Below are positions 1-9,000 of a stretch of 64,000 bases of DNA, one piece after another (within the stretch, counting starts at the first letter, position 1; each line of letters starts with the position of its first letter). The stretch is from an uncultured Fusobacterium sp. (GTDB lineage Bacteria; Fusobacteriota; Fusobacteriia; Fusobacteriales; Fusobacteriaceae): positions 2,977-66,976 of the forward strand of contig CAURHF010000008.1 of the NCBI GenBank assembly GCA_963524875.1, given 5' to 3'. A program made the position numbers.

Positions 1-3000
1 TTTACTATTGGTCCACTAGTTCTAGGGTCAATCTTTATGCCTGTTGCTCTTGAAATATCATTTTCAGGAATAAGACCAACAGATAGAAGTAAAGTATCAC
101 ATTCATATTCTATTTCAGTTCCAGGTATAGCTTTTTTATTTTCATCAACCTTAGCAATTATAACTTTTTCAACTCTATCTTTACCAATGATATCTATAAC
201 TGTATGGCTTAAGTATAGTGGAATACCATAATCATCTAAACATTGTACAATATTTCTTGTTAGTCCACCAGAGAATGGCATAAGTTCTGCAACAGCTAAA
301 ACTTTTGCCCCTTCAAGAGTAAGTCTTCTTGCCATGATAAGTCCAATATCTCCTGAACCTAAGATAACAACTTTTTTACCAACCATATATCCTTCCATAT
401 TGATATATCTTTGAGCAGCTCCTGCTGTAAAAACTCCTGCAGGTCTATCACCTGGAATTGCTATCGCTCCTCTTGTTCTTTCTCTACAACCCATAGTCAA
501 AACTACAGATTTAGCTTCAATTATCATATAACCATCAACAGAATTTATAGCTTGAACTATTTTATTTTCAGATACTTCTAAAACCATAGTATCTAGCTTA
601 TACTCTATGTTTAATTCAAATAATTGATCCATAAATCTTTGAGCATATTCAGGTCCTGTTAATTCTTCTTTAAATTCATGAAGTCCAAAACCATTGTGAA
701 TACATTGTTGTAAGATTCCACCTAATTCTTTTGCTCTTTCAATTACAAGTATACTATCTATTCCATTTCTTTTAGCTTCTACTGCTGCTGCAAGTCCAGC
801 TGGACCTCCACCAACAACAACTAAATCATATTTCATATTCATATCATTTCCCCCTATTTAGTTTTTCCTGTTAAGATGTAAGAGTCTTTTTGTTCCATAA
901 CTATTTCTTCTAAATCTTCTCCAAGTTCTCTTGCTAAGATTTCTTGTACACGAGGTCCACAGAACCCACCTTGACATCTTCCAGCACCTGGTCTAACTCT
1001 TCTTTTGATACCATTTAATGTTCTTCCACCACATTTTCTATGAATAGCATCAACTATTTCTCCTTCAGTTATGTTCTCACATCTACAAATTATTCTTCCA
1101 TATCTAGGGTCTTTCTTTATAACTTCTGCTTTTTCTTCTGGTGATAGGCTTATAAAATATATCATTTTTCTATTTTTTATAAAGTTTTCTTTTTCTTTTA
1201 CTCCACCTAAACTTTCAATTACCATTTTAGCTAAATCAACTGCCATTGCAGGAGCAGATGTAAGCCCTGGTGACTTAGTTCCTGCCATATTAAAGAAACC
1301 TTTTACATCTTCAGCTTCTCCAAGAATAAAATCTCCTGTATCAGCTTCAGCTCTAAGTCCAGCAAAGTTTCTAATATTATCTCTAAAATTAACATCTTTT
1401 ATGCTCTTTGTTGCAAATAGTTTAATTGTATCAAATCCATTTTGGGTATTTCCTACATCATCTTTATTTTCAACATCAGAAGCAGTAGGTCCAACTATTA
1501 TATTTCCATGAGCAGTTTTTGAAACTAATATACCTTTTCCCATTTCAGTAGGGCATTGGAAGATTACACTGTCAGTTAAATATCCTTGTACCTTGTCTAA
1601 CAAATAATATTCTCCTATTCTTGGAGTGATTTTAAAATGTTTATTTGAAAGCATATTATTTATAAAATCTGCATAAACTCCCGCTGCATTAATAAGGGTT
1701 TTTGTCTCAATAATTTCTCCAGATTTTAACTCTATTTTAAATATATTATTTTCTTTTTTTATATTTATAACTTCTGAATTTAACTTTAATTCAACACCAT
1801 TTTCCATGGAATTTTCTACTAATTTGATTGTTAATTCCCAAGGACCTGTAATTCCTGCTGTACCTGCATATAGAGCTGCAACAGCTTCTTTACTTACATG
1901 AGGTTCTCTTTTTTGAATTTCAGCTGCATCTATGATTTCCATTTCAGGAACACCATTATTTAATCCTCTTTGGTATAGCATTTCTAAATGTTCTTTTTCC
2001 TTTTCAGAAAATGCTAGTACATAAGAACCTACTTTTCTAAATGGAGCATCAACTTCTTTACACAAATCTTCATACATAGCATTACCTAATACATTGTATT
2101 TAGCCATAAGGCTTCCTTCTTTTGCATCATATCCTGCATGTACTATTGCAGAATTTGCTTTTGTTGTACCACAAGAAACATCATTTTCTTTATCTAATAA
2201 TAAAACTTTTAATTCATACTTAGATAATTCTCTTGAAACTGCTGCTCCCATTATTCCAGCACCAATAACAACCACATCAAACATATCGTTCCTCCTAATT
2301 AAAAAATAAAAAAGTCGCAAAAAAGACAGAATCTCTCCTGTTATTTTCACGACTCACCATTCACTAGTCTAATATTCTATTTAAACTTCATATATATTAT
2401 ACCAAAATTAGAACAGTTGTCAATATAATTATTAAATATAAAATAATATTGCAATTAACAATATTAAAAGTATAGCAGTTAAAATAAAGTTAATAAAGTC
2501 TTTTGTTCTTTCTTTTTTATATTCTTCAAAAATTTCTATATATCTTTCCATTTTTTCTTTATCTAATAGTTCTTCTTCTGTATATCCTAAAAATTTATTT
2601 CCTTTTAATATTGCATTTGAATATTCATCATCCTTTGGTGGAAGATATCCTTCTTTAATTAATCCTTTTGTGTAAAAGTCATTATAAATAAATGAAAAAA
2701 TAAGTCTTGAAATAGGAAGTAATACAACCATAAAAAAAATAAAGTTACTTAAATAATTAATATAATAATAATAATCTAGCAAAAGGATAAATGCAGGCAT
2801 TATTTTAGTATAAGGTAATATGAAAGCAAAATGAAAAAATAAAAAAGTATTAATTTCTTTAAAAGTAATAATATATAAAAATAAATAAGGTAAAAGAAAA
2901 ATAAAAAACCATTTAAAATCTAGTCTAAATAAAGGAACAAAAAAGTCAAAGAGAAGTGAAATCCAACTGAAACTTAAATATCCTTTTTTCTTATGTCCGT

Positions 3001-6000: not shown

Positions 6001-9000
6001 TCCTATGATTTCTAAAGGTAGATTAGGATTTCTTATATCTCCATCATGTAAATTTCTTGCTTGAAAGAAATAAAGCAATGCTTTCATAAATGAAGATTTC
6101 CCTGTACTAGATGCCCCTATAAATATTAAAAAATCTTTACATTCTAAACTTACATTTGAAAAAGTTTGCCAATTTTTGATTTGAACTTTTAATAATTGCA
6201 TAAGTCCTCCTAGAATTATTTGTATTCTATAGGTAAAGTATAAATAAAAAAATAATTAAATTCAAGTTTTTTATAAATAGATTCTATTATATTTGTAAAA
6301 AAAATAAAATATAATGTGGATACTTAAAGATAGTTTGTTACTATTCAAATTTATTAATTAACTACTTGATACCTCTAATATCTCCTAAACTCCAAAATAC
6401 TTTTTTAACATTAGAGGGCATCATAGTAGTTTCATTTAAAAGTTATTCAAATATTTTTTAATAAAAATTTGGAATGTAACTTACCTATCTTTAAATTATT
6501 AAGAAATATAAAAAATAGGAGTATAAAAAATGTTAAATACAGAATTATTTATTGGAGCAGTTTATGTTGCAGGTTTACTTTCTTTCTTTTCACCTTGTAT
6601 ATTTCCATTACTTCCAGTTTACATTGGAATGTTAAGTACAAGCGGTAAGAAATCTATCATAAAAACATTGGTATTTGTAATTGGACTTTCCACAAGTTTT
6701 GTTTTACTTGGATTTGGGGCTGGAAGTATAGGTTCATTTTTGATAAGTAAAACATTTAGAATAATTAGTGGAGTAATAGTTATAATATTTGGAATTATGC
6801 AAATGGAGATTGTTAAAATACCATTTTTGGAAAGAACAAAACTTGTGGATATAAAAGGAAAAGAAAATGATAGTATTTGGGGAGCATTTTTACTGGGTTT
6901 CACTTTTAGTTTAGGATGGACACCTTGTGTTGGACCAATACTTGCTTCAATTCTTTTTATTTCAAGTGGAGGAGGAAATCCTTACTATGGGGCACTTATG
7001 ATGTTTATTTATGTTTTAGGTTTAGCGACACCTTTTGTCATTCTATCTTTATCTTCAAAATATGTATTGACAAAAGTTTCAGCAATAAAAAAACATTTAG
7101 GTATTATGAAAAAAATTGGTGGTTTGTTAATAATTATTATGGGAATTTTACTTCTTACTGATAAATTAAGTATATTTTTATAAGATTATTTAAGGTTAAA
7201 ATGAGGTTGTTACAAATTAGTAAATGAAGTAAAAATAGTTCATTAGATCAATTTGTAATAGACCCTTTAATATAAATTAAAATTATTTAAGGAGGTTTTA
7301 GCAGATGAAAGTGCTAAAAAAATTGTTTTTAGGAATTATGATGTTATTAATGGGAGCAGTAGCTTTTGGGGCAGAGATAGATTTGTCAAAGGTTACTTTA
7401 AAAGATGTGAATGGAATGAGTTATTCTTTTGGAAAAGATGGAAAACCAACTTATGTTAAGTTTTGGGCTTCTTGGTGTCCAATTTGTCTTTCTGGATTAG
7501 AAGATATAGATAATCTTAGCAAAGAAAAGAAAGATTTTGAAGTTGTTACTGTAGTTTCTCCTGGGCTAGTTGGGGAAAAGAAAACAGAAGATTTTAAAAA
7601 ATGGTATAAATCTTTGGAGTATAAGAATATAAAAGTTTTATTAGATGAGAAAGGTGAATTATCAAAGATATTAAATATTCGTGTTTATCCAACTTCTGTT
7701 GTTGTAAATAAAGCTGGGAAAGCTGAAAAAGTTCTTCCAGGTCATTTAGAAAAAGCAGAAATAAAAAAATTATTTTCTTCTAAAATGATGATGAATGACA
7801 AAGGAATGAAAGACACTATGATGAAAGATAATCATATGACGAACGATGGAAAGATGAAAGATAACATGATGAAAGATGATAAAATGAGTATGGAAAAAAA
7901 AACATCAATGTAAAACATGTTAATAAAAATATTCATGAAATATATTTAGCAGGAGGTTGTTTTTGGGGTGTAGAAGCATATATGGAAAAAATATATGGTG
8001 TAATAGATGTAACTTCTGGATATGCAAATGGAAAAACTAAAAATCCTAAATACCAAGACTTACATAGTTCAGGACATGTTGAAACAGTCCATGTTAGATA
8101 TGATGCAAGTAAAGTTAATCTTTCAACTTTATTAAAATATTATTTTAAAATTATTGATCCAACAAGTGTAAATAAACAAGGAAATGATAGAGGTTCACAA
8201 TATAGAACAGGAATTTATTATGTAAATCAAAATGATAAATCTGTTATTCAAGATGAAATAAAAGAACAACAAAAAAGATATTCTCAGAAAATTGTAGTGG
8301 AAGTTTTACCTTTAAAAGAATATTATTTAGCAGAAGAATATCATCAAGATTATTTGAAAAAAAATCCTAATGGTTATTGTCATATTGATTTGTCAAAAGC
8401 AGATGATATAATAGTAGATGAAAAAAAATATCCAAAATTATCTGAAAAAGAATTAAAAATGAAATTAAATTCAAAACAATATGAAGTGACACAAAATGGG
8501 GATACAGAAAGAGCATTTCAAAATGATTATTGGGATTTTTTTGACAAAGGGATTTATGTTGATATAACAACAGGAGAACCATTATTTTCTTCAACTGATA
8601 AATATGCTTCTCAATGTGGATGGCCTAGTTTTGTAAAACCTATTGTTCCAGAAGTTGTAACTTATCATAATGATACTAGTTTCAATATGATAAGAACAGA
8701 AGTAAGAAGCAGAAGTGGAAAAGCACATTTAGGACATGTATTTGATGATGGACCAAGAGATAGAGGGGGAAAAAGATATTGTATCAATAGTGCAGCAATA
8801 CAATTTATCCCTTATGCAGAAATGGAAGCAAAAGGTTATGGATATTTATTACCACTTGTAAAATAAAAGTAAAAGAGAATTAAAAGGAGAAAGATTGTGT
8901 ATAAGTTAATGATTGCAGATGATGAGCCTTTAATTAGGAGGGGTATAAAACAACTAATAGATTTATCTTCTTTACAAATTGGAGAAATTTATGAGGCTTC

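What the first reader, a model, noticed from the sequence alone, without database searches (positions are those of the whole stretch)
2432..6201. Short OLD-family nuclease in one operon with four tandem paralogous membrane proteins
Seen in sequence:
- A 438-aa ABC-ATPase + Toprim protein is followed, at gaps of 20, 20, 23 and 14 nt, by four paralogs of 188-213 aa. Its motifs are GASSTGKSS, LLWEEPE, VILVEGQTDK and VYDKDN.
- The paralogs share an N-terminus MAIxINLEKxG...(F/Y)S(W/Y)...VP(L/A)FR, 3-4 TM helices, a cytoplasmic loop YTxxLLxxGYxPxxDDEYSNAILKG and a C-terminal TM helix.
- Each paralog has its own RBS.

Established knowledge: OLD nucleases are the cores of Gabija, PARIS-like and retron defence systems, and in those systems they pair with helicases, DUF4435 proteins or reverse transcriptases, not with membrane proteins.

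Inference: this may be an OLD sensor/nuclease paired with diversified membrane effectors or receptors, or the adjacency may be fortuitous.
Basis: partly seen in the sequence, partly recalled or inferred. Interest (0 to 1): 0.7.

Follow-up and report, generated by a model that had tools for sequence, protein, structure and literature searches.

The report
OLD nuclease beside separable membrane-protein array
A compact stand-alone OLD-type nuclease of Fusobacterium shares a promoter with four fast-evolving HrgC/DUF2628-type membrane-protein genes, but related genomes keep either part without the other, so this is probably not a new two-part defence system.

Summary
On the minus strand a 438-aa OLD-family ATPase-Toprim gene (4885-6201) is followed, at gaps of 20, 20, 23 and 14 nt, by four paralogous membrane-protein genes of 188, 189, 213 and 198 aa that are 33-40% identical to one another.

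The nuclease is closest to single-gene Class 1 OLD enzymes: Thermus scotoductus OLD is the best match by both sequence and fold. It is conserved across Fusobacterium under strong purifying selection.

The membrane genes are a lineage-specific long form of the widespread, uncharacterised HrgC family of about 100 aa, which has a DUF2628-like fold. They evolve fast (dN/dS 0.3-0.6) and vary from 1 to 5 copies.

Co-transcription is likely. There is no terminator in the region, and the same promoter and leader drive the array directly in strains that lack OLD. Obligate coupling is not supported:
- 17 of 41 assessable arrays in a metagenome scan lack an adjacent OLD, three of them through a clean OLD deletion at this very locus.
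- OLD relatives at 44-76% identity in six other contexts have no array.
- The paralog type next to OLD varies.

Verdict: an ordinary Class-1-like OLD beside an independent, poorly understood membrane-protein array. Interest is modest.

The parts
6202..6340 (-). Promoter/leader region of the operon. It includes a TTGAAT-17-TATACT match at 6265-6237 and the OLD RBS (AGGAGG).
   Evidence: The promoter-like match is 9/12, which is not above chance in this AT-rich DNA. The segment is nearly invariant and sits directly in front of the first membrane gene's ATG in OLD-less loci L063, L064 and L094.
4885..6201 (-). Compact (438 aa) OLD-family ATPase-Toprim nuclease of Class-1 (single-gene) type.
   Evidence: Pfam OLD-like_TOPRIM 2.2e-19 and AAA_15 6e-13. 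PADLOC 'Old' 3.5e-37. Best solved sequence relative is Ts OLD 6p74, E 3.1e-16. AF2 model has pLDDT 85.7, and the best Foldseek hit is 6p74 at E 1.7e-22. dN/dS is 0.05-0.11.
4298..4864 (-). Long HrgC-like membrane protein, paralog 1 (188 aa, 'M1 type').
   Evidence: ORF and alignment A1. phrog_4915 at 5.8e-12. Homologues are named 'HrgC protein' by NCBI. Orthologues are 53-89% identical where the adjacent OLD is 89-96% identical.
3708..4277 (-). Long HrgC-like membrane protein, paralog 2 (189 aa, 'M2 type').
   Evidence: phrog_4915 at 6.4e-16. AF2 model has pLDDT 80 and pTM 0.69: an N-terminal beta-hairpin, TM helices, a cytoplasmic helical segment and a C-terminal TM helix. BFVD fold matches to DUF2628/PF10947 phage proteins.
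3043..3684 (-). Long HrgC-like membrane protein, paralog 3 (213 aa, 'M3 type').
   Evidence: phrog_4915 at 4.7e-15. Orthologues are 41-82% identical.
2432..3028 (-). Long HrgC-like membrane protein, paralog 4 (198 aa, 'M4 type').
   Evidence: phrog_4915 at 5.8e-12. This type is the only copy kept next to OLD in single-copy loci L016 and L102.
2396..2423 (-). Downstream boundary: a perfect extended sigma-70 promoter (TTGACA-16-TG-TATAAT) for the next gene, glpA-like DAO (854-2350).
   Evidence: 12/12 match. It shows that glpA has its own promoter and is not part of the unit.
6365..6511 (.). 147-nt intergenic segment between the DsbD-like gene and the operon promoter. Its function is unknown.
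   Evidence: Present at 89-100% identity in 14 OLD-containing loci and absent from OLD-less loci L063, L064 and L094. No Rfam family matches at gathering score in 1-12000.

Best explanation
The locus holds two separable units that share one promoter.

Unit 1 is a compact single-gene (Class-1-type) OLD nuclease. It is vertically inherited and strongly conserved across Fusobacterium. It most likely acts alone: a Toprim two-metal DNA nickase/nuclease controlled by an ABC-type ATPase head. In this clade the head has lost the D-loop and H-loop histidines, so it probably binds ATP but hydrolyses it poorly (inferred).

Unit 2 is a tandem array of a long form of the HrgC/DUF2628-fold small inner-membrane protein family. 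The long form was seen only in the F. nucleatum/periodonticum clade. Each copy has:
- a conserved N-terminal beta-hairpin plus first TM helix;
- a conserved cytoplasmic YNxYYT...GYxP...DDEY segment;
- a highly variable TM2-loop-TM3 region;
- a variable C-terminal TM helix.

The array evolves fast and gains and loses copies (1-5). It is maintained with or without OLD, so its unknown, envelope-related function does not require the nuclease.

Shown: anatomy, homology, evolutionary rates, presence/absence patterns, the shared promoter segment.
Inferred: co-transcription, enzymatic activities, membrane topology, functional independence.
For: OLD identity and class:
- Pfam and PADLOC hits.
- Ts OLD 6p74 is the best match by sequence and by fold.
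- No helicase, RT or DUF4435 gene flanks it.
- Toprim residues E298, D302, D350 and D352 and the NDIEEE motif are invariant in 21 orthologues.

OLD conservation:
- 88-96% identity and dN/dS 0.05-0.11 across F. nucleatum-group loci.
- Relatives at 44-76% identity lie in housekeeping contexts, often near msrAB, in F. necrophorum, F. varium and other Fusobacterium. Their downstream genes are unrelated: none on the same strand, a CHAP-domain gene, a PTP phosphatase, msrAB, a PNPOx-like gene.

Membrane family:
- 792 clusters at 50% identity, of which only about 18 are long forms.
- Short forms of about 100 aa occur singly in many phyla next to heterogeneous housekeeping genes.
- They are also found in phages as phrog_4915 and in 121Q-like jumbo phages annotated 'HrgC'.

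Separability:
- A scan seeded on the membrane protein gave 24 assessable arrays with OLD and 17 without.
- OLD-less arrays are intact. They sit at the same DsbD|...|glpA locus (L063, L064, L094), behind a TetR gene with stop/start overlap (L015, L076-L083, L112), or behind an MBL-fold hydrolase gene (L092, L098, L105, L106; Pfam).
- In L069 OLD is split into two ORFs while five array genes stay intact.
- The paralog adjacent to OLD is M1, M3, M4 or another type, depending on the strain.

Shared promoter: the ~140 nt before OLD's ATG directly precedes the first array gene in OLD-less loci. No terminator was found in the region.

Fast evolution: positional orthologues are 41-89% identical with dN/dS 0.31-0.64. 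The TM2-loop-TM3 region is only 21% identical between paralog types, against 51% for the N-terminus and 43% for the cytoplasmic segment.
Against: - In most F. nucleatum-group genomes sampled, the array does follow OLD at 14-60 nt on the same strand.
- The DsbD-OLD-array linkage persists in a periodonticum-like lineage whose downstream flank differs (L126, L084-L089).
- The long form of the family was found only in the clade where it neighbours OLD.
- Fast evolution and copy-number change are typical of conflict genes. HrgC replaced a restriction-modification system in H. pylori (PMC4615327).
- Metagenome contigs cannot show whether OLD-less arrays coexist with an OLD elsewhere in the genome. 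In two samples a TetR-linked array and an OLD-linked array have similar coverage and may share one genome, so action in trans is not excluded.
- Loci are not phylogenetically independent, so the counts overstate the number of events.
Confidence: 0.6

Rival explanations
1. One reading: OLD and the membrane paralogs form one anti-phage system, a fifth OLD 'class'. The diversified membrane proteins would sense infection at the envelope and activate the nuclease, or act as membrane effectors triggered by OLD.
For: - Same strand, 14-23 nt gaps, no terminator and a shared promoter.
- The adjacency is conserved in many F. nucleatum-group loci and in L126 and L084-L089, which have a different downstream flank.
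- The long form is restricted to this clade.
- Fast evolution and 1-5 copies.
- The OLD ATPase in this clade lacks both catalytic histidines, so it could depend on a partner.
Against: - 17 of 41 assessable arrays lack OLD, including clean OLD deletions that leave intact arrays under the same promoter.
- TetR-linked and MBL-hydrolase-linked arrays are intact.
- OLD relatives without arrays occur in six other contexts. F. necrophorum OLD has the same His-to-Asn changes but no array.
- No particular paralog is retained next to OLD.
- No PADLOC hit for the membrane proteins.
- Short HrgC is never near OLD in 25 loci.
- Neither gene was found in IMG/VR viral contigs or in a defence island.
Confidence: 0.13
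2. The membrane array is itself a conflict module, independent of OLD. It could provide superinfection exclusion or receptor masking, or immunity to membrane-targeting toxins. Its variable periplasm-facing and TM regions would be under diversifying selection, and OLD and the array would simply be a small two-gene-type defence cluster.
For: - dN/dS of 0.3-0.64 against 0.05-0.15 for neighbouring genes.
- Copy number of 1-5 and positional orthologues down to 41% identity between closely related genomes.
- Variability is concentrated in TM2-loop-TM3 and the C-terminal TM helix.
- Family members occur in phage genomes.
- HrgC replaced an RM system in H. pylori.
Against: - dN/dS stays below 1 and fits relaxed constraint equally well. 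NG86 estimates are rough at this divergence and AT content.
- No toxin, phage or mobile-element gene is adjacent.
- Neighbours of short HrgC are housekeeping genes.
- Fusions to YARHG or MORN domains suggest a generic membrane-anchor or envelope role.
Confidence: 0.17
3. This OLD is not a defence gene in Fusobacterium. It would be a housekeeping DNA-processing enzyme (repair or recombination), and the array an unrelated envelope gene family.
For: - Present in many Fusobacterium species in stable housekeeping contexts with residual synteny to msrAB.
- Very low dN/dS.
- Not in viral contigs.
- A published PADLOC/DefenseFinder survey of two F. nucleatum strains lists no OLD or Gabija system (PMC12632247). 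I did not verify that those strains carry the gene.
Against: - All characterised OLD-family proteins act in defence (PMC12392090).
- The best PADLOC hit is the 'Old' model.
- The gene is dispensable: it is cleanly deleted in L063, L064 and L094 and split in L069.
Confidence: 0.1

Closest known systems
Class 1 OLD family nucleases (P2 Old, Thermus scotoductus OLD PDB 6p74, Vibrio cholerae Vc OLD)
   Same: [quoted passage not shown] No helicase, RT or DUF4435 partner gene. 6p74 is the best match by sequence and by fold.
   Different: - Shorter: 438 aa against 528-586 aa, with a smaller helical insertion (helices 133-186).
- The D-loop and H-loop histidines, required for P2 Old function in vivo (PMC7049728), are Asn here.
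- It is a chromosomal, genus-wide, vertically inherited gene rather than a cargo of a phage or mobile island.
- In this clade it heads an operon that continues into membrane-protein genes.
Gabija GajA/GajB (Class 2 OLD), PARIS AriA/AriB (Class 4), retron Eco8-type (Class 3)
   Same: ATPase-Toprim core. PADLOC GajA models hit at 1e-30 to 1e-11, and there are fold matches to GajA and Retron-Eco8.
   Different: No UvrD-like helicase downstream, no split ATPase/DUF4435 pair, no reverse transcriptase or ncRNA. The partners here would be membrane proteins, and they are not obligate.
HrgC (Helicobacter pylori gene that replaces the PabI RM system; homologues in Fusobacterium, Bacillus, E. coli and jumbo phages)
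   Same: Same family by profile search. It shares the N-terminal hairpin-TM1 motif and the YNxYYTxxLxxxG motif. NCBI names Fusobacterium members 'HrgC protein'. A Helicobacter genome also carries a hit.
   Different: HrgC proper is under about 100-110 aa and single-copy. The window proteins are 188-213 aa, with an inserted variable TM region, a roughly 60-aa cytoplasmic extension and an extra C-terminal TM helix, and they form tandem arrays of 1-5 copies. The type I toxin idea for HrgC is the authors' speculation only (PMC4615327).
Pfam DUF2628 (PF10947) small membrane proteins
   Same: Fold-level match of the AF2 model to phage PF10947 proteins in BFVD (E 1.7e-5 to 1e-2, probability 1.0). A short HrgC gives a weak Pfam hit (E 0.069).
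   Different: No Pfam DUF2628 hit for the window proteins even at E<=1. The function of DUF2628 is itself unknown.

Membership tests
OLD family nuclease | N-terminal ABC-type ATPase with Walker A (GxxxxGK[ST]) and Walker B (hhhhEEPE/DEPE) | tested here: met
   GASSTGKSS at 29-37 and LLWEEPE at 198-204. G34, K35 and E201 are invariant; E202 is Lys in 4 of 21 orthologues. Pfam AAA_15 6e-13 and AAA_29 3.6e-6.
OLD family nuclease | D-loop His and H-loop His of the ATPase (P2 Old H306 and H332, needed in vivo; Ts OLD H283) | tested here: not met
   FYLNPQ (N208) and STNSS (N234) align with Ts OLD MYLHPQ and STHSP. The positions are N/T/S/K in the nucleatum and necrophorum clades, and His is retained in most varium/ulcerans-clade sequences. 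This bears on ATP hydrolysis, not on family membership.
OLD family nuclease | C-terminal Toprim with metal-A ligands E...(DxD) and the first metal-B ligand (Ts E377, D381, D431, D433) | tested here: met
   E298, D302, D350 and D352 align with these residues and are invariant in 21 orthologues. Pfam OLD-like_TOPRIM 2.2e-19, covering the full model.
OLD family nuclease | Remaining metal-B ligands and the catalytic Arg/Lys (Ts S478, E480, R487) | tested here: inconclusive
   An invariant NDIEEE (388-393) and R399 lie at the expected distance, but no residue-level structural superposition was done.
OLD family nuclease | Overall three-domain fold (ATPase, helical insertion, Toprim) | tested here: met
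   AF2 pLDDT 85.7 and pTM 0.84. Foldseek top hit is 6p74 at E 1.7e-22 with TM 0.67, followed by GajA and Retron-Eco8.
Class 1 OLD (single-gene system) | No conserved partner gene: no UvrD-like helicase downstream, no RT/ncRNA upstream, and ATPase and Toprim on one polypeptide | tested here: met
   The neighbours are a DsbD-like gene (divergent) and HrgC-like genes. Downstream genes differ among orthologues. No Rfam hit.
Class 1 OLD (single-gene system) | Anti-phage or abortive-infection activity | not testable with these tools
   Needs phage or plasmid challenge.
Gabija (Class 2 OLD) | [quoted passage not shown] | tested here: not met
   The downstream genes are 188-213-aa membrane proteins with no helicase domain. 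The protein ends about 85 aa after the DxD motif.
PARIS (Class 4 OLD) | Separate AriA ATPase and AriB DUF4435 Toprim proteins | tested here: not met
   A single fused protein. The AriA model hits only the N-terminal 159 aa at 3.7e-13, far weaker than the 'Old' model.
HrgC family | N-terminal MAxK(I/V)xLxxxG...G(F/Y)S(W/Y)...VPxFR hairpin-TM1 module plus the (F/Y)YNxxYTxxLxxxG(Y/F/W) motif after the last core TM helix | tested here: met
   A profile of the four paralogs finds short HrgC proteins at E 1e-12 to 1e-25, matching profile positions 1-50 and 85-135. phrog_4915 hits at E 1e-12 to 1e-16. NCBI uses the name 'HrgC protein'.
HrgC family | Small size (about 100 aa or less), single copy | tested here: not met
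   188-213 aa, with an inserted variable TM region, a cytoplasmic extension and a C-terminal TM helix. Tandem arrays of 1-5 copies.
HrgC family | Type I toxin-antitoxin behaviour (proposed only) | not tested
   The authors of PMC4615327 call this speculation. No antisense RNA was looked for beyond the Rfam scan.
Pfam DUF2628 (PF10947) | Match to the Pfam model at gathering score | tested here: not met
   No hit at E<=1 for the four proteins. E 0.069 and 14 bits (cut-off 23) for short HrgC P0322. Only fold-level similarity to BFVD PF10947 proteins.

The most novel reading that the evidence does not exclude
OLD and the long HrgC-like proteins form a facultative membrane-coupled OLD system. An ATP-hydrolysis-impaired OLD would be held or licensed at the inner membrane by interchangeable, fast-evolving HrgC-like partners that sense phage attack at the envelope. 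This would be a fifth OLD architecture and would give the HrgC/DUF2628 family its first function. OLD-less arrays would then be remnants, or would work in trans.
Probability: 0.12. Interest if true: 0.7.

Novelty: new member of a known kind. Interest (0 to 1): 0.3.

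Why it matters
If the two parts are independent, as the evidence suggests, the locus adds little to defence biology. It does yield three useful facts:
- Fusobacterium carries a genus-wide, compact Class-1-like OLD with an unusual ATPase: both catalytic histidines are lost in the nucleatum and necrophorum clades.
- The unstudied HrgC/DUF2628-fold family has a long, tandemly amplified, rapidly diverging form in the cancer-associated F. 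nucleatum group. It could serve as a strain-typing marker and is a candidate envelope-interaction determinant.
- Tight operonic adjacency to a defence gene is not enough to call a new system.

If the minority reading were true, this would be the first OLD nuclease coupled to membrane partners.

Tried and rejected
- Pfam, NCBIfam and PADLOC scans of the four membrane proteins gave nothing meaningful. The weak CARF/ZorB/SLATT-model hits (E 0.004-0.19) were treated as noise.
- Foldseek of the membrane-protein model against the PDB found nothing (best E 1.9). Zorya ZorA at rank 5 has probability 0.02 and was rejected.
- I looked for a recurrent partner of short HrgC by scanning 73 neighbouring proteins from 22 loci against Pfam. 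The result was only heterogeneous housekeeping families.
- IMG/VR scans found no long HrgC-like gene and no relative of this OLD on viral contigs, so a prophage origin was rejected.
- The Rfam scan of 1-12000 found no known RNA.
- The terminator scan found none, and the promoter scan was not above chance in this AT-rich DNA. The operon call therefore rests mainly on the junction comparison.
- I first read L084-L089 as an independent second context for OLD plus array. L126 shows that the same DsbD left flank is present, so this is ancestral synteny with a rearranged right flank, not independent evidence of linkage.
- A literature search for DUF2628 and HrgC function found only the 2015 H. pylori paper and a passing mention in the YARHG paper.
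- Several long 'BNJ*' metagenome contigs (L091, L099, L111, L115, L116, L118, L119, L121) gave only fragmentary hits and were left out of the tally.

Full report
**1. Observation**

The ORF table and the sequence confirm the layout on the minus strand:
- a 438-aa ORF at 4885-6201;
- ORFs of 188 aa (4298-4864), 189 aa (3708-4277), 213 aa (3043-3684) and 198 aa (2432-3028);
- gaps of 20, 20, 23 and 14 nt, with a purine-rich RBS before each ATG.

The first protein hits Pfam OLD-like_TOPRIM (2.2e-19) and AAA_15 (6e-13). Its best PADLOC model is 'Old' (3.5e-37), ahead of many GajA models.

The four downstream proteins are real paralogs:
- They are 33-40% identical to one another.
- They have 25 invariant columns, clustered in the N-terminus and in a YNxxYT...G...D.Y segment.
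- DNA-level repeats of 171 and 156 nt at 62-72% identity confirm the paralogy and show no recent gene conversion.
- They have no Pfam, NCBIfam or PADLOC family.

The region is 20-27% G+C, like its surroundings. The closest named proteins are from Fusobacterium.

**2. The nuclease**

- The best solved sequence relative is the Class 1 OLD of Thermus scotoductus (6p74, E 3.1e-16).
- An AlphaFold model (pLDDT 85.7, pTM 0.84) has 6p74 as its top Foldseek hit (E 1.7e-22, TM 0.67). GajA and Retron-Eco8 follow.
- The Toprim residues that align with Ts OLD E377, D381, D431 and D433 are E298, D302, D350 and D352. They are invariant in 21 Fusobacterium orthologues, as is an NDIEEE motif at 388-393. Residue roles are taken from PMC7049728.
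- No helicase, reverse transcriptase or DUF4435 gene is adjacent. By the published definition (PMC12392090) the gene is therefore of Class 1 type.
- The D-loop and H-loop histidines, which P2 Old needs in vivo, are Asn208 and Asn234 here. The same positions are replaced throughout the nucleatum and necrophorum clades and are kept as His in most varium/ulcerans-clade sequences. I infer weak or absent ATP hydrolysis; this is not shown.

**3. The nuclease in other genomes**

- Across F. nucleatum-group loci the protein is 88-96% identical, with dN/dS 0.05-0.11.
- More distant relatives (44-76% identity) lie in housekeeping contexts, often within a few kb of msrAB.
- Their downstream genes are unrelated to the paralogs:
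  - none on the same strand in F. necrophorum;
  - a 198-aa CHAP-domain protein in F. varium;
  - a PTP-type phosphatase;
  - msrAB;
  - a frameshifted gene that reads as PNPOx-like by eye, in a 76%-identical relative.
- My profile search found no HrgC-like ORF in any of these loci.
- No relative of this OLD was found on IMG/VR viral contigs.

**4. The membrane proteins**

- A profile of the four paralogs finds 1486 proteins in the 90%-clustered database. Several Fusobacterium members are named 'HrgC protein' by NCBI.
- HrgC was named in H. pylori as a gene of under 100 aa that replaces the PabI restriction-modification system. The authors list a Fusobacterium homologue and speculate, without data, that it is a type I toxin (PMC4615327).
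- An exhaustive search of 50%-identity representatives gives 792 clusters, of which only about 18 are full-length long forms.
- The rest are proteins of about 100 aa that match profile positions 1-50 and 85-135, or fusions to YARHG, MORN or coiled-coil regions.
- Short forms occur singly in Fusobacterium, Streptococcus, Leptotrichia, Helicobacter, alphaproteobacteria and clostridia.
- In 25 loci they are never within about 8 kb of an OLD. In the 22 loci whose neighbouring genes I scanned, those neighbours are heterogeneous housekeeping genes.
- The family also occurs in phages: phrog_4915, 121Q-like jumbo coliphages annotated 'HrgC', phage D6 and Lactobacillus brevis phages.
- An AlphaFold model of paralog 2 (pLDDT 80, pTM 0.69) shows an N-terminal beta-hairpin, TM helices, a low-confidence loop at 71-79, a cytoplasmic helical segment and a long C-terminal helix.
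- The model has no PDB match (best E 1.9). It does match phage DUF2628/PF10947 proteins in BFVD (E 1.7e-5).
- The window proteins are therefore a long form of an uncharacterised HrgC/DUF2628-fold family.
- In the YARHG fusions, the YARHG domain lies beyond an extra TM helix. YARHG is considered extracellular (PMC3355149). That is consistent with an N-in, C-out topology for the long form (inference).

**5. Linkage test**

I classified every fetched locus with my own profile and phmmer searches.

Arrays next to OLD:
- Long-form arrays were found only in the F. nucleatum/periodonticum clade.
- Where OLD is present, the order is usually DsbD-like gene (divergent), OLD, N array genes, then glpA.
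- N is 1 (L016, L096, L102), 2 (L008, L043-L046, L059, L061, L108), 3 plus a frameshifted fourth (L047-L050), 4 (window, L001, L013, L014, L056, L071-L073, L090) or 5 (L012, L067, L068, L074).
- In a periodonticum-like lineage the order is DsbD, OLD, two array genes, and then a different right flank (L126, L084-L089).

Arrays without OLD (the metagenome scan was seeded only on the membrane protein, so it is not biased towards OLD):
- 24 assessable arrays follow an OLD and 17 do not.
- The same DsbD|array|glpA locus occurs with OLD absent (L063, L064, L094).
- Arrays lie directly behind a TetR gene with stop/start overlap (L015, L076-L083, L112).
- Arrays lie behind an MBL-fold hydrolase gene (L092, L098, L105, L106; Pfam).
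- In L069 OLD is split into two ORFs while five array genes are intact.
- OLD-less arrays carry the same paralog types as OLD-linked ones.
- The gene next to OLD is M1, M3, M4 or another type in different strains.

These counts include related strains, so they are not independent events.

**6. Junction**

- Aligning the DsbD-OLD intergenic region of the window with L063, L064 and L094 shows that the ~140 nt just upstream of OLD's ATG directly precedes the ATG of the first array gene in the OLD-less loci. This segment includes the TTGAAT-17-TATACT match and the RBS.
- The crossover lies inside the two similar RBS sequences, TAGG|GGGA.
- This supports two conclusions:
  - The OLD promoter is the array's promoter, so OLD and the array are very probably co-transcribed in the window. 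No terminator-like site exists in 2200-6700, and glpA has its own perfect promoter at 2423-2396.
  - OLD can be removed cleanly while the array stays expressed and intact, so the array does not need OLD.
- A 147-nt segment (6365-6511) is present in OLD-containing loci and absent from the OLD-less ones. I cannot explain it.

**7. Evolutionary rates**

- Against the same set of genomes, the left-flank genes (DsbD to histidine kinase) are 94-99% identical with dS 0.05-0.16.
- OLD has dS 0.27-0.61 and dN/dS 0.05-0.11.
- glpA has dN/dS of about 0.12-0.15.
- The array genes are 41-89% identical with dN/dS 0.31-0.64.
- Between paralog types, identity is 51% in the N-terminal module, 43% in the cytoplasmic segment, 21% in TM2-loop-TM3 and 32% in the C-terminal TM helix.
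- These rates fit diversifying selection on membrane- or periplasm-facing parts, and they fit relaxed constraint equally well. NG86 estimates at this divergence are rough.

**8. Conclusion**

The best-supported reading is two separable units under one promoter. One is a Class-1-type OLD that acts alone. The other is an independently maintained, rapidly evolving HrgC-like membrane array of unknown, probably envelope-related function (confidence about 0.6).

A real OLD-membrane system remains possible (about 0.12-0.13), because adjacency is the commonest state in the F. nucleatum group and action in trans cannot be excluded from contigs.

The nuclease is a new member of a known kind. The array is a lineage-specific long variant of a named but uncharacterised family.

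Noticed in passing
window 4885-6201 (residues N208, N234); orthologues P0121-P0153 versus P0154-P0240: The D-loop and H-loop histidines of the OLD ATPase, required for P2 Old function in vivo, are replaced by Asn, Thr, Ser or Lys in the F. nucleatum and F. necrophorum clades. They are retained in most F. varium/ulcerans-clade sequences. Some orthologues also have WEKPE instead of WEEPE. The Toprim motifs are invariant in all.
   Followed up: partly
window 6365-6511: A 147-nt intergenic segment is present (89-100% identity) in 14 OLD-containing loci and missing from the three OLD-less alleles of the same locus. OLD-less alleles therefore differ by two separate indels that flank a retained promoter segment. 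There is no Rfam match. Its function is unknown.
   Followed up: partly
window 6530-11327 (DsbD-like, thioredoxin-like lipoprotein, msrAB, AraC-type response regulator, histidine kinase): This five-gene block is 94-99% identical (dS 0.05-0.16) between genomes whose adjacent OLD and glpA have dS 0.2-0.6. In other strains it sits at different positions relative to the array: inside it in L094, L095 and L097, and absent from the glpA-proximal array in L098, L105 and L106. This suggests recent recombinational spread or rearrangement of the block.
   Followed up: partly
L015, L076-L083, L112 (periodonticum-like contigs): A two-gene long-HrgC array overlaps the stop codon of a TetR-family regulator gene by 13 nt, downstream of an auxin-efflux-carrier-like gene. 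In L015 and L082 the TetR gene looks truncated or frameshifted.
   Followed up: partly
L004-L007 7368-7964: In F. varium the OLD orthologue (47% identity) is followed, 24 nt downstream, by a 198-aa protein with an N-terminal TM segment and a CHAP (peptidoglycan amidase/peptidase) domain. This is another envelope-directed gene directly downstream of an OLD.
   Followed up: no
window 2396-2423 (minus strand): A perfect extended -10 sigma-70 promoter (TTGACA-16-TG-TATAAT, 12/12) lies 8 nt after the stop codon of the last array gene and drives the glpA-like gene at 854-2350.
   Followed up: no
P0300, P0324, P0340, P0339: HrgC-like N-terminal modules are fused in other bacteria to C-terminal YARHG domains (considered extracellular, possibly peptidoglycan-binding), MORN repeats or long coiled coils. 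This suggests the module can serve as a membrane anchor for envelope-facing domains.
   Followed up: partly
L011, L047-L050 (fourth array gene); L069 (OLD): The fourth array gene is frameshifted (75 + 155 aa pieces) in one lineage, seen in five separate contigs. OLD is split into 199 + 238 aa pieces in L069. These could be real pseudogenes or assembly errors.
   Followed up: no
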